A DNA stretch of 64,000 nucleotides, from contig NW_019217945.1 of NCBI RefSeq assembly GCF_002571385.2, positions 419,090-483,089 on the forward strand, read 5' to 3'. Source of the DNA: Stylophora pistillata. Its lineage: Eukaryota. Below, piece after piece: positions 24,201 through 27,586 of the stretch; position 1 is the stretch's first letter, and the number at the start of each line of letters is the position of its first letter. The translations under genes were made by a program, and so were the position numbers. Below the pieces are notes generated by a model that made no database searches, was not told the origin of the DNA, and saw nothing but the letters and a program-made list of their open reading frames with translations.

Positions 24201-27200
24201 TCTGTAATCTTACTTTCTCGTAGGTATGATCCAAACTGCTGTGAAGGTAAATTCTGCCGTACCGCTAGGGTTCTACAAACTAACTCCTTTTCCACTCCCT
24301 ATAGTAAAATTTCGAATTTGAATTCCAGAAAAATTTTGTCTGGAAACAGACACAATTTAAATTAATTAATAAAAATACCTCTGCTCCCACGTTCACTCGC
24401 CTGACCGAACGAGTTAGCAACTCGGACTTTATTTTGATTCTAAGTTGTTTGTTGATAGGATAAGATGTTGTTCTGTGACGAATGTGACCGTGGATACCAC
24501 AGTTTCTGCGTGGGACTCAAACAGATACCTGTGGGTGAGTACATAACCATAGTTATTACCCTAGAATCGTATTGAATCTGGTCGTTAGTAAGGGTGATCA
24601 TTAGTTATATTTTCCTGTTTCTTGCGTTTCTTGTTAATCTTGATAACAATCGGTCTACGTTGTTGTATACACTCATTGCAGTTAGATTAACCTTTTGACT
24701 AAGTCTAAACGCACCGAAACTTAAATTTCACCGCGAAAAGACGTTTAAGGACTTTCTGGAGAGGGGAGGGGAGGGAAGGGGAGATTGGGTAGGGGGAAGA
24801 GGGAGGGGGGAGGGGGGAAGGAGAGGGGGTGAACCCTTGAATGCGACACGCACGATCAAAACTATGAACCGTTTGCCAAGACAACGAAACCTAAAGTGGA
24901 AAACTGAACAATCCCATAGAGAGAACGAACTTAGACTCTTCTACCCCGTTATGCGTTCACTGTGTTGGTTTCTGTCATCAGGTCGGTGGACATGTGACAA
25001 GTGTGGTATGTGTGCATCCTGCTTGAGAAGATCCCCAGGTGAAGGACCAACCTCCAGATGGAAACACGAGGTTTTTATAGCCTCTCCTTACAGTGTTGAG
25101 ACCTTTTATCACAACCAGTACCATGAGTAAAGAGTACTTTGACTTCTATCAGCTAATTTGGTTTCTTATACACTCCACAGTACACCAAACCACGAGACGG
25201 ATCAGAAGTACAGTTCTTACAAACCTTGTGTACTGCTTGTTCCAGGTATAAACCGGTCACAGTATGCTATTTCTTGAACACTTCATGAACACTTCATGCG
25301 ATGCCAACGCATTGTTTATCTACATGTACCCTACACCCGCGCTACACGCATTTTACGCGTGTGGACTTCCTGCAATCACTGCGGACGCTGTTAAAGCGTC
25401 TTTTGCTTCGTCTTGTATCTTTCCTCATATTTAGTTTTTTAAGGGAAAGTTGCTTACATGCTTCATGAATGACTTACAATGTGGTGTCCTCTTTCCAGTC
25501 TTCTCTTTTGTGTTTACTTTGCGCTCTTGTTGATGTTGCGTTTTACATTGTTCCTTTCACAGGTTGAATGACTTACAATGTGGTGTCCTCTTTCCAGTCT
25601 TCTCTTTTGTGTTTACTTTGCGCTCTTGTTGATGTTGCGTTTTGCATTGTTCCTTTCACAGGTTGAATGACTTACAATGTGGTGTCCTCTTTCCAGTCTT
25701 CTCTTTTGTGTTTACTTTGCGCTCTTGTTGATGTTGCGTTTTTGNNNNNNNNNNNNNNNNNNNNNNNNNNNNNNNNNNNNNNNNNNNNNNNNNNNNNNNN
25801 NNNNNNNNNNNNNNNNNNNNNNNNNNNNNNNNNNNNNNNNNNNNNNNNNNNNNNNNNNNNNNNNNNNNNNNNNNNNNNNNNNNNNNNNNNNNNNNNNNNN
25901 NNNNNNNNNNNNNNNNNNNNNNNNNNNNNNNNNNNNNNNNNNNNNNNNNNNNNNNNNNNNNNNNNNNNNNNNNNNNNNNNNNNNNNNNNNNNNNNNNNNN
26001 NNNNNNNNNNNNNNNNNNNNNNNNNNNNNNNNNNNNNNNNNNNNNNNNNNNNNNNNNNNNNNNNNNNNNNNNNNNNNNNNNNNNNNNNNNNNNNNNNNNN
26101 NNNNNNNNNNNNNNNNNNNNNNNNNNNNNNNNNNNNNNNNNNNNNNNNNNNNNNNNNNNNNNNNNNNNNNNNNNNNNNNNNNNNNNNNNNNNNNNNNNNN
26201 NNNNNNNNNNNNNNNNNNNNNNNNNNNNNNNNNNNNNNNNNNNNNNNNNNNNNNNNNNNNNNNNNNNNNNNNNNNNNNNNNNNNNNNNNNNNNNNNNNNN
26301 NNNNNNNNNNNNNNNNNNNNNNNNNNNNNNNNNNNNNNNNNNNNNNNNNNNNNNNNNNNNNNNNNNNNNNNNNNNNNNNNNNNNNNNNNNNNNNNNNNNN
26401 NNNNNNNNNNNNNNNNNNNNNNNNNNNNNNNNNNNNNNNNNNNNNNNNNNNNNNNNNNNNNNNNNNNNNNNNNNNNNNNNNNNNNNNNNNNNNNNNNNNN
26501 NNNNNNNNNNNNNNNNNNNNCATTGTTCCTTTCACAGGTTGAATGACTTACAATGTGGTGTCCTCTTTCCAGTCTTCTCTTTTGTGTTTACTTTGCGCTC
26601 TTGTTGATGTTGCGTTTTACATTGTTCCTCTCACAGGTTGTTCCGAGCCGGTAACTTCTGCCCGGTTTGTTTGAAAGTTTACCGCAATGACGAGTCTGAT
26701 TTGCCTATGGTGTGTTGTGACATGTGTGACCGCTGGATTCACACAGGTTTGACTGAACTACTCTTTTGTCCTTATATAGTTTTGATTTGGAAGACATTAC
26801 AGCGCTGAATCCCAAAACAGAGGTTTGGGTTCGAGTCCTGGCTGGATCGCCGCGTTGTATTCTTAAGCAAAACACTTTACTCTCGTGATGCGTCGCCTCG
26901 GGCTCCCTATGAGTATAGCTGGGTACTGGCAAATGTCTGGGCGGTAACTCAAGGTGGAAGGGGCAGTATTGCTAGTAGTGTGCTTTGAAAACCAAGGTTA
27001 TTTCAGACAGGGTTGGGTATACGTCTTGTGTGGTGATTATTAGTGATATCACTTAAATCATGTGAATAGGTAAAGACTATATATACATGTTTGTGACAAT
27101 TTAGGTGGAAACAGAACCACCTGATCTTAGTTTCTCGTTACGTTGTAAATTAAGGTATTGAATGCACATGTATGTCTATATTTTGATAAATTACTTTAAG

Positions 27201-27586
27201 CTTGTGCTTGACATTTGATTTTCTTTTACTTGGAAGCACGCCTGAAAGGTTTTCCAGATTTACAAAGAATAACTGTATTTAGTTTTGGTTTACAGATATC
27301 TTACTCTGTCGCAACGAAGGTAACTTTAACATTGTATATGCAATGTAACCCCCCTCGAACACCTAGGTGGTTTTTGGGAAAACAATGACAAATATGTTTC
27401 AACAGAAAAACGCAATTGTACGTTAACCTACATAGTTTTTACTTTTCAGATTGTGATGGTATCGACGAAAAAGCTTATGCACAACTCGCCCGGACGAAAA
27501 GCAAGTACAGCTGTGTTCTGTGCCGCGGAGAGAAGCAAGAAAGAATGGATTCCTTTCACAGAAAGAACAGGAGCAAGGCTTCATGA
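18283..27586 (+). CDS. PHF10: PHD finger protein 10 (PHF10/BAF45A/SAYP homolog, PBAF subunit), ~553 aa, with an extra C-terminal PHD finger
   Basis: Exons 18283-18285 (ATG only, tentative), 18389-18677, 19390-19467, 20014-20081, 20395-20460, 20749-20877, 21323-21432, 22073-22205, 22554-22640, 22884-22992, 23494-23606, 24459-24534, 24982-25070, 25181-25245, 26637-26746, 27450-27586. All GT-AG with consistent phases, 1662 nt. SAY-region motifs [50 protein letters not shown] and [18 protein letters not shown]. Double [36 protein letters not shown]...[11 protein letters not shown]...[26 protein letters not shown]. Confidence 0.93.
19498..19690 (+). mobile_element. Non-autonomous DNA transposon/MITE fragment, family C (PHF10 intron)
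   Basis: Starts ctttaactcccaagatctga... The 3' half (ggtgt..at.aa.ataa...tattctcat...atatta...ggagaagttacatg) recurs at ~29750-29872. Confidence 0.55.
20154..20308 (+). mobile_element. PLE-like family B insertion (5'-truncated) in PHF10 intron
   Basis: Reverse complement of ~5289-5435. Flanked by a 13-bp direct repeat tatgtatacctac (20141-20153 and 20309-20321). The hammerhead core is mutated (ccaaaga). Confidence 0.75.
20905..21075 (-). mobile_element. SINE body fragment (headless)
   Basis: Minus strand atagatgggtactggc...ggggataacc...gatgga...ggggtagtgttact overlaps the 3' part of the SINE at 26797-26975 (atagctgggtactggc...gcggtaact...ggtgga..ggggcagtattgct). Confidence 0.55.
21131..21310 (+). 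repeat. Diverged direct duplication (period ~109 bp) just before the PHF10 exon 7 acceptor
   Basis: tatggaccttgaactc...gtatagatttctttctgatctacagctactgtacaaaatgttt versus tatgaaccttgaactt...gtatggatttctttctgctcttcagttattgtacaaaatgttt. Confidence 0.75.
21754..21977 (+). repeat. 111-bp tandem duplication, 2 near-identical copies (PHF10 intron 7)
   Basis: Unit atgttttatttcaat(a/g)ttccccagaaaggag...tgttgtgcacataca starts at 21754 and again at 21865. Confidence 0.9.
23759..24143. mobile_element. Palindromic (foldback) PLE-like element with a nested family B insertion at 23938-24100
   Basis: Outer arms gatcttgtagtctgatggtctgggcgag / ctcacctagaccattagaccacatgatc are inverted. Inner arms gtgactgacgtttcaacaacctaagcgg / ctgctcaggtggtcgaaacttccgtcac are inverted. 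The insert is flanked by tttgtcatg (23929-23937) and tttgccatg (24101-24109). Confidence 0.65.
24758..24830 (+). repeat. G/A-rich polypurine tract
   Basis: About 70 nt of almost only G and A with many GGG+ runs. Confidence 0.8.
25466..26640 (+). repeat. 99-bp tandem array spanning an assembly gap; each unit ends in the PHF10 exon 15 acceptor
   Basis: Unit tgaatgacttacaatgtgg...cattgttcctttcacaggt starts at 25466, 25565, 25664 and 26540. N gap 25745-26520. About 12 copies if the gap size is right. Confidence 0.9.
26797..26975 (+). mobile_element. tRNA-derived SINE (degenerate)
   Basis: Pol III B-box gggttcgagtcc, then gcgttgtattcttaagcaaaacactttactctc...gagtatagctgggtactggc, a central domain typical of metazoan tRNA-SINEs. 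No cloverleaf. Confidence 0.6.

What the first reader, a model, noticed from the sequence alone, without database searches (positions are those of the whole stretch)
24982..27586. PHF10 with an extra MLL/Trithorax-like zinc linker and third PHD finger
Seen: after the canonical double PHD the spliced frame continues CGMCASC...RWKHE...[56 protein letters not shown]...YSCVLC. Known: vertebrate PHF10 ends soon after the double PHD, whereas GNFCPxCxKxY...MxxCxxCDRWVHxxC is the signature of KMT2A/Trx PHD3, an H3K4me3 reader. Inference: this PBAF subunit either retains an ancestral Trx-like PHD1-2-3 cassette or gained one, adding a histone-mark reader.
Basis: partly seen in the sequence, partly recalled or inferred. 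Interest (0 to 1): 0.7.

Follow-up and report, generated by a model that had tools for sequence, protein, structure and literature searches.

The report
Coral PHF10 keeps ancient third finger
This coral makes the chromatin-remodelling subunit PHF10 with an extra zinc knuckle and a third PHD finger that vertebrates lack; related proteins of sponges, single-celled relatives of animals, fungi and plants carry the same extra part, so it is likely an ancient piece that many bilaterian animals lost, and it is predicted to bind the active-promoter histone mark H3K4me3.

Summary
A 16-exon gene (18009-27586, +, all GT-AG) encodes a 556-aa protein identical to an NCBI Stylophora PHF10 record, and RNA reads join every exon from PHD2 through a C4 zinc knuckle into a complete third PHD finger. 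It is not coral-specific and probably not taken from KMT2A. The same DPF-knuckle-PHD3 cassette, with Tyr/Met/Asp/Trp reader residues intact, occurs in other cnidarians, a sponge, choanoflagellates, an ichthyosporean, fungal Rsc7/Swp82-type proteins and a plant TPF-like protein. Insects and a shrimp keep the zinc ligands but lose the cage; a priapulid and a horseshoe crab keep only the knuckle; the named deuterostomes and Lingula stop after the double PHD. Best reading: a retained ancestral SMARCG (PHF10/Rsc7/TPF) triple-PHD module, eroded repeatedly in bilaterians. The KMT2 likeness is likely ancient paralogy; the trees favour this but cannot reject KMT2A capture (AU p=0.11). H3K4me3 binding is predicted only: three MLL1 cage residues are kept, Tyr1581 and Gln1587 are not. 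Triple-PHD SMARCG is known in plants; I found no paper stating it for animal PHF10.

The parts
18009..27586 (+). PHF10 (SMARCG/BAF45a) coding span, 16 exons, 556 aa
   Evidence: exons 18009-18020, 18389-18677, 19390-19467, 20014-20081, 20395-20460, 20749-20877, 21323-21432, 22073-22205, 22554-22640, 22884-22992, 23494-23606, 24459-24534, 24982-25070, 25181-25245, 26637-26746, 27450-27586 translate exactly to P0031; best PDB match human PHF10, E 1e-107
18389..22205 (+). Exons 2-8: SAY (winged-helix) region and Req-like anchor helix, aa about 55-265
   Evidence: Aligns with human PHF10 aa 63-334; weak Pfam DPF1-3_N hit on exon 20749-20877, E 0.003, below the family cut-off
22884..25004 (+). Exons 10-12 and start of exon 13: canonical double PHD finger (DPF), aa about 333-431
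   Evidence: model matches DPF3/MOZ double PHDs
24982..25070 (+). Exon 13: end of PHD2, first CxxC of the zinc knuckle (C434, C437) and conserved W450
   Evidence: RNA joints
25181..25245 (+). Exon 14: second CxxC of the zinc knuckle (C470, C473)
   Evidence: RNA joints
25466..26640 (+). 99-bp tandem repeat in intron 14 whose unit contains a copy of the exon-15 splice acceptor; spans a 776-N gap (25745-26520)
   Evidence: no joint to a decoy acceptor listed
26637..26746 (+). Exon 15: first part of PHD3 with C483, C486, Y490, M499, C502, D503, C505, W508, H510
   Evidence: (Pfam PHD E 5e-5); RNA joints
27450..27586 (+). Exon 16: rest of PHD3 (C513, C533, C536), short tail and stop
   Evidence: RNA joint 26743>27447 in X23, X24, X4, X5

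Best explanation
The gene encodes an expressed coral PHF10 whose C-terminus carries a double PHD, a zinc knuckle and a third PHD finger; this is likely the ancestral form of the SMARCG subunit of SWI/SNF complexes, and the third finger is predicted to bind H3K4me2/3. Shown: gene structure, splicing, intact zinc ligands and the wide spread of the cassette. Inferred: (1) the N-terminal SAY/Req part docks the protein in PBAF as in human PHF10; (2) the double PHD reads H3 tails with unmethylated K4 and acylated K14; (3) PHD3 holds trimethyl-K4 in a Y490/M499/W508 cage, with D503 likely taking H3R2; (4) both readers would need a free H3 N-terminus, so they would bind different tails or act in turn, keeping the remodeller at promoter and +1 nucleosomes after these gain H3K4me3; (5) bilaterians eroded the module stepwise: cage lost in pancrustaceans, PHD3 lost in a priapulid and a chelicerate, knuckle and PHD3 lost in deuterostomes and Lingula. 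I put ancestry at about 0.85 and H3K4me2/3 binding at about 0.65.
For: Spread. The full cassette is in Orbicella, Acropora, Actinostola, Paramuricea, Hydra, the sponge Sycon, choanoflagellates Didymoeca, Diaphanoeca, Salpingoeca and Bicosta and Amoebidium. It is also in proteins bearing the fungal Rsc7/Swp82 CRC domain (7 of the 9 tree rows of the fungal group) and in a Dionaea protein that aligns over all three fingers, 37% of 224 aa, E 2e-43. The Didymoeca protein aligns from SAY to PHD3 in one piece, 35% of 511 aa. Aromatic-M-D-W is intact in 11 of 11 cnidarian, 6 of 7 named sponge/unicellular holozoan, 21 of 22 fungal-type and 7 of 7 plant/protist rows, against 0 of 7 arthropod-type and 1 of 13 animal KMT2 cassettes. 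Named arthropods keep a worn third finger (Megachile e(y)3, Frankliniella, Lygus, Penaeus), which places the cassette in the bilaterian ancestor. The whole-cassette tree groups the 31 opisthokont SMARCG-type rows at 81/84 and leaves both KMT2C/D cassettes outside at 95/91. Y490, M499 and W508 align without gaps to MLL1 Y1576, M1585 and W1594 (cage residues from PMC8022399). AlphaFold on an octocoral-type homolog gives pLDDT 91 and pTM 0.80 for the three-finger stretch. Literature: TPF, Rsc7/Swp82 and DPF/PHF10 are one SMARCG family (PMC9170682); TPF has three tandem PHDs and sits on H3K4me3-rich 5' gene regions (PMC9561266); DPF domains reject H3K4me3 (PMC8538644); Tetrahymena SAF5 is described as triple-PHD (PMC13580576).
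Against: The knuckle+PHD3 tree (104 columns) has no supported branch joining the coral finger to fungal or plant ones (84/0). AU tests reject neither cnidarian PHF10 + coral KMT2A-like (p 0.11) nor + KMT2C/D cassette 1 (p 0.12); only one KMT2A-type sequence was available. In the whole-cassette tree the KMT2A-like row is unresolved among the plant/protist rows. Three plant/protist rows (P0320, P0222, P0254) carry KMT2-type extended-PHD domains, so the intact signature is not unique to SMARCG. MLL1 Y1581 and Q1587, important for binding by mutagenesis, are S495 and C501 here. Capsaspora lacks the cage. Rows were found by likeness to cnidarian queries, which favours intact ones. Bilaterian 'losses' rest on database gene models, with only one named spiralian. 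The older Tetrahymena paper describes Saf5 with two PHDs (PMC5844071). No binding or PBAF membership was tested.
Confidence: 0.7

Rival explanations
1. The cassette is ancestral, but PHD3 binds a non-histone partner or is mainly structural, as Pygo and MLL1 PHD fingers use a second face for BCL9 or Cyp33.
For: Y1581 and Q1587 equivalents are missing. Pygo fingers tie with MLL1 PHD3 as structural matches, Z 7.1-7.5. Arthropods keep all eight ligands without the cage, which suggests a cage-independent role. A helix-and-tail segment after PHD3 is conserved in cnidarians.
Against: The cage positions and the Asp are near-invariant from corals to fungi and plants; a Trp-divided cage with an acidic R2 pocket is the described H3K4me3 signature (PMC3241642). 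The two roles do not exclude each other.
Confidence: 0.18
2. An early holozoan or cnidarian PHF10 gained knuckle+PHD3 from a KMT2A/Trithorax or KMT2C/D gene, and the plant and fungal triple fingers arose separately.
For: MLL1 PHD3 is the best PDB sequence hit (E 1e-11). KMT2D aligns over the whole cassette. AU tests do not reject the grouping.
Against: PHD3 is closer to fungal (26-31 of 57) and plant (29) fingers than to the coral KMT2A-like (22) or KMT2C/D (18-23) ones. It would need three or more separate captures at the same place behind the double PHD of one protein family. The coral KMT2A-like gene encodes its PHD3 in one exon, while PHF10 splits the region with introns.
Confidence: 0.1
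3. Artefact: the last exons belong to another gene or were mis-joined across the assembly gap.
For: A 776-N gap and a tandem repeat lie in intron 14.
Against: 43 raw reads of two runs and a contig of a third cross that intron; many transcript-derived homologs are collinear.
Confidence: 0.01

Closest known systems
Human PHF10/BAF45a (PBAF subunit, PDB 7Y8R/7VDV chain R)
   Same: SAY region, Req-like helix, acidic linker and double PHD; E 1e-107.
   Different: Mammalian PHF10 ends about 20 residues after PHD2; the coral protein goes on for 125 residues with a zinc knuckle and PHD3.
Plant TRIPLE PHD FINGERS TPF1/TPF2 (SMARCG of the MAS/MINU complex)
   Same: Three tandem PHDs (PMC9170682, PMC9561266); the Dionaea protein P0178 matches all three fingers and the knuckle, cage residues included.
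   Different: No SAY domain; fingers are N-terminal, with a C-terminal Tudor-like domain (PMC9170682). Calling P0178 TPF-like is my inference; Arabidopsis TPF1 itself was not among my sequences.
Fungal Rsc7/Swp82-type SMARCG proteins with PHDs
   Same: CRC-domain proteins with the same knuckle and PHD3.
   Different: CRC domain in place of SAY; yeast Rsc7/Swp82 lack PHDs (PMC9170682).
KMT2A/MLL1 PHD3 and the PHD cassettes of KMT2C/D
   Same: Same order of two PHDs, knuckle and PHD; Y, M and W cage positions; fold match Z 7.1, rmsd 2.1 A over 60 residues to 3LQH.
   Different: No SET, FYR or bromodomain in P0031; lacks Y1581 and Q1587 equivalents and has Asp where MLL1 has Gly; the coral has separate KMT2A-like and KMT2C/D-like loci.
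Insect SAYP/e(y)3
   Same: SAY region plus double PHD; Megachile, Frankliniella and Lygus also keep the knuckle and C4HC3 ligands of a third finger.
   Different: Much longer proteins; cage worn away (0 of 7 intact).

Membership tests
PHF10 (BAF45a/SAYP) orthologues | SAY domain N-terminal to the PHDs | tested here: met
   Aligns with human PHF10 aa 63-334 at 185 bits
PHF10 (BAF45a/SAYP) orthologues | Double PHD closer to PHF10 than to DPF1-3 or MOZ/MORF | tested here: met
   184 bits to the PHF10 double PHD; DPF3, DPF2 and KAT6 chains score 89-112. A separate DPF-like locus lies on G000:C311
PHF10 (BAF45a/SAYP) orthologues | Stable subunit of PBAF with ARID2, PBRM1 and BRD7 | not testable with these tools
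   Shown for human PHF10 (PMC3307773); inferred here
SMARCG family, triple-PHD form (TPF-like) | Three tandem PHD fingers with intact zinc ligands | tested here: met
   Pfam PHD x3; ligands listed; model
SMARCG family, triple-PHD form (TPF-like) | Req helix that anchors SMARCG in the nucleosome-binding lobe | tested here: inconclusive
   Pfam DPF1-3_N at E 0.003, below cut-off; region conserved with human PHF10, which has an extended Req (PMC13580576)
Plant TPF proper | C-terminal Tudor-like domain and no SAY | tested here: not met
   P0031 has SAY and ends 20 residues after PHD3; no Tudor hit. Not filed as TPF
KMT2A/Trithorax methyltransferases | SET, FYRN/FYRC, bromodomain after PHD3 | tested here: not met
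   Only PHD families hit P0031; stop at 27584-27586
H3K4me3-reading PHD fingers | Cage of 2-4 aromatic residues with invariant Trp | tested here: met
   Y490, W508 and M499 align to MLL1 Y1576, W1594 and M1585; Y1581 equivalent absent
H3K4me3-reading PHD fingers | Acidic pocket for H3R2 | tested here: inconclusive
   D503 is conserved; that this position is the R2 pocket is recalled from BPTF/ING2, the general rule is in PMC3241642
H3K4me3-reading PHD fingers | Measured selective binding to H3K4me3 | not testable with these tools
   Needs ITC or peptide arrays

The most novel reading that the evidence does not exclude
SWI/SNF remodellers carried a built-in H3K4me3 reader on their SMARCG subunit from early eukaryotes on; a SAY-bearing, triple-PHD PHF10 arose before animals (choanoflagellates, ichthyosporeans), survives in sponges and cnidarians, and was dismantled several times in bilaterians, so vertebrate PBAF is the reduced form and the DPF-less vertebrate isoforms may be a workaround for the lost reader.
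Probability: 0.4. Interest if true: 0.62.

Novelty: new variant of a known kind. Interest (0 to 1): 0.42.

Why it matters
PHF10 and DPF subunits are treated as double-PHD proteins and the triple form as a plant feature. Finding the complete form in non-bilaterian animals, their unicellular relatives and fungi turns that round: the vertebrate protein is likely the truncated one. It gives residue-level support to the proposed kinship of PHF10, Rsc7 and TPF. It extends SAY-type PHF10 outside animals, where PMC9170682 found SAY only in metazoans. It also offers a testable answer to how PBAF-type complexes stay on H3K4me3 promoters that the double PHD rejects. The protein itself is already in databases, and domain loss in one subunit is a modest surprise.

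Tried and rejected
Trees of knuckle+PHD3 and of the whole cassette used 49 rows that I chose from 102; they were too weak to settle the origin, and all three AU tests were non-significant (p 0.11, 0.12, 0.13). The ESM Atlas gave only generic PHD clusters and no model. The word-based protein searches found just one plant protein and no KMT2A. Fold searches list no solved chain spanning the whole three-finger unit; a weak GATA-finger match to the knuckle (Z 4.0, 35 residues) is a lead only. Use of the decoy acceptors in intron 14 was looked for and not seen at the threshold of 3 reads. Paper searches for PHF10 + 'three PHD', PHF10 + choanoflagellate, and SAYP + 'PHD fingers' + 'third PHD' returned nothing; PHF10 + 'triple PHD' returned four plant papers. 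No binding data for plant TPF/PMS2 fingers appeared in the listings. The scan's earlier findings held nothing. No complex prediction was run, since methyl-lysine peptides cannot be modelled with that tool.
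Full report
Observation. With twelve upstream exons from ATG 18009 they translate exactly to P0031, 556 aa, which NCBI names PHF10-like of Stylophora pistillata. Human PHF10 is the best solved relative (E 1e-107), matching the SAY region and the double PHD and ending right after PHD2. Raw stranded RNA reads of runs X23 and X24 (one study, about 2% of each run read) cross the four joints with 13+31, 24+31, 25+18 and 34+22 reads; contigs of X4 hold all four and X5 the last. X13 and X15 list none. The extension is a C4 knuckle (C434, C437, C470, C473) and a full C4HC3 finger (C483-C536). 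Pfam finds three PHD stretches, and AlphaFold gives pLDDT 78-91 per block over aa 431-540.

How far it spreads. I searched with the exon-15 frame, with the SAY+DPF part and the extension of a close homolog, and with a 212-aa octocoral-type cassette against 1.84 billion representatives. Only the listed hits were examined: 120 of 280 and 150 of 4496. A pattern census of the 235 SAY+PHD2 proteins among 310 stored proteins of 250 aa or more gave 67 with an intact third finger, 26 with a worn one, 27 with only the knuckle or a part, 112 with the double PHD only and 3 unclassified. This set is redundant, holds fragments and is not balanced by taxon. Named intact cases are Pocillopora, Stylophora, Orbicella, Acropora, Actinostola, Paramuricea, Hydra, the sponge Sycon, the ichthyosporean Amoebidium and the choanoflagellates Didymoeca, Diaphanoeca, Bicosta and Salpingoeca. 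Megachile e(y)3, Frankliniella, Lygus and Penaeus keep the ligands but not the cage. Priapulus and Tachypleus keep only the knuckle. Vertebrates, Branchiostoma, three hemichordates, a crinoid and Lingula stop after PHD2. Outside Holozoa the cassette sits in proteins with the fungal Rsc7/Swp82 CRC domain, in a Dionaea protein that aligns over all three fingers (37% of 224 aa), and in Rhodelphis and Soliformovum proteins.

Where it comes from. PMC9170682 places DPF/PHF10, fungal Swp82/Rsc7 and plant TRIPLE PHD FINGERS in one SMARCG family, calls the animal members double-PHD and says SAY was found only in metazoan PHF10. PMC13580576 describes Tetrahymena SAF5 as triple-PHD, whereas PMC5844071 counted two. 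Over the 57 positions of PHD3 the coral finger shares 36-38 residues with Sycon, Amoebidium and two choanoflagellates, 24 with Salpingoeca, 26-31 with fungal proteins and 29 with the plant one. It shares 22 with the coral's own KMT2A-like finger and 18-23 with KMT2C/D cassettes. On 49 rows chosen from 102, the whole-cassette tree groups the opisthokont SMARCG-type rows at 81/84 and excludes KMT2C/D at 95/91, but leaves the single KMT2A-like row unresolved among plant and protist rows. The knuckle+PHD3 tree has no supported backbone, and AU tests reject none of three constraints (p 0.11-0.13). Distribution and identity, not the trees, carry the argument: one inherited cassette with later losses is simpler than repeated capture. 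Some protist proteins with KMT2-type extended PHDs carry the same intact cassette (P0320, P0222, P0254), so it was likely shared by SMARCG and KMT2 proteins very early. The Didymoeca protein aligns with the coral one from SAY to PHD3 (35% of 511 aa), which points to SAY-type PHF10 before animals.

How it likely works. Inferred from human PHF10, the SAY/Req part docks in PBAF (PMC3307773; PMC13580576). The double PHD is modelled to bind H3K14ac and to reject H3K4me3 (PMC8538644). In PHD3, Y490, M499 and W508 align with MLL1 cage residues Y1576, M1585 and W1594; Y1581 and Q1587, which also matter in MLL1, are S495 and C501. D503 is conserved across SMARCG-type rows and fits the acidic R2 pocket described for H3K4me3 readers (PMC3241642; the exact position is recalled). 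Aromatic-M-D-W is intact in 11 of 11 cnidarian, 6 of 7 sponge/unicellular holozoan, 21 of 22 fungal-type and 7 of 7 plant/protist rows, and in 0 of 7 arthropod-type rows. An octocoral-type cassette folds with pTM 0.80, which suggests one packed unit; its PHD3 matches MLL1 PHD3 and Pygo fingers about equally (Z 7.1-7.5). I therefore expect a two-state reader: the double PHD for K4-unmethylated, K14-acylated tails and PHD3 for K4me2/3, holding the remodeller at active 5' ends. This fits the location of plant TPF complexes on H3K4me3-rich +1 nucleosomes, where the authors call histone binding likely rather than shown (PMC9561266). None of this binding is tested.

Novelty. The protein is annotated and triple-PHD SMARCG is known in plants. 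I found no paper stating three PHDs for animal PHF10 or SAYP, or PHF10 in choanoflagellates; the library lacks most subscription journals. What I saw of each paper: PMC9170682 passages, section 10, a search of four of five supplements and part 1 of 3 of supplement 2, without figures; PMC8538644 parts 1-3 of 5, through the conclusions, without figures; passages only of PMC9561266, PMC11678306, PMC3241642, PMC8022399, PMC5844071, PMC3307773 and PMC13580576 (plus an empty supplement search). Fig. 3b,c of PMC9170682 could already show three fingers in fungi or in a non-bilaterian animal, which would lower the novelty.

Verdict. Real, expressed and conserved; a new variant of a known kind, best read as a retained ancestral state with repeated bilaterian erosion. 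Interest 0.42.

Noticed in passing
window 25466-26640 (+), intron 14: A 99-bp tandem repeat whose unit includes the exon-15 splice acceptor; decoy acceptors end at 25562, 25661 and 26537 and would add 22 residues and a stop, removing PHD3. No joint to them was listed; in run X15 the unit has about 8-25 times the depth of its flanks.
   Followed up: partly
window 7224-11610 (-), 29200-38989 (-), 62518-64000 (+): PHF10 sits among PRD-class homeobox genes: a goosecoid-like gene upstream (best PDB hit goosecoid) and two Otx/Crx-like genes in divergent orientation downstream, identical over the 26 homeodomain-region residues the window shows for the second.
   Followed up: partly
P0071 (Nematostella PHF10 isoform X2): This predicted isoform ends just after the first CxxC of the knuckle; if real, cnidarians may splice PHD3 out, much as vertebrates splice out the double PHD.
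   Followed up: no
window 24827-24955 and 26762-27406: Sense-strand intronic reads in run X24 at depth 3-8 against 12-23 on exons: pre-mRNA or retained introns that would cut the cassette.
   Followed up: no
P0180, P0185, P0332, P0028, P0297: Choanoflagellate, ichthyosporean and Capsaspora proteins match my SAY-region profiles (N-terminal part 0-45 bits, C-terminal part 37-93 bits), against the published statement that SAY is metazoan only.
   Followed up: partly
window about 20150-20310 and 23950-24100: Two copies of a very abundant repeat lie in PHF10 introns and draw thousands of RNA reads on both strands; likely a SINE-type element.
   Followed up: no
G000:C376 (L025) and G000:C322 (L026, L027): The coral's KMT2A-like and KMT2C/D-like genes carry their own PHD-PHD-knuckle-PHD cassettes, the latter two in tandem.
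   Followed up: partly
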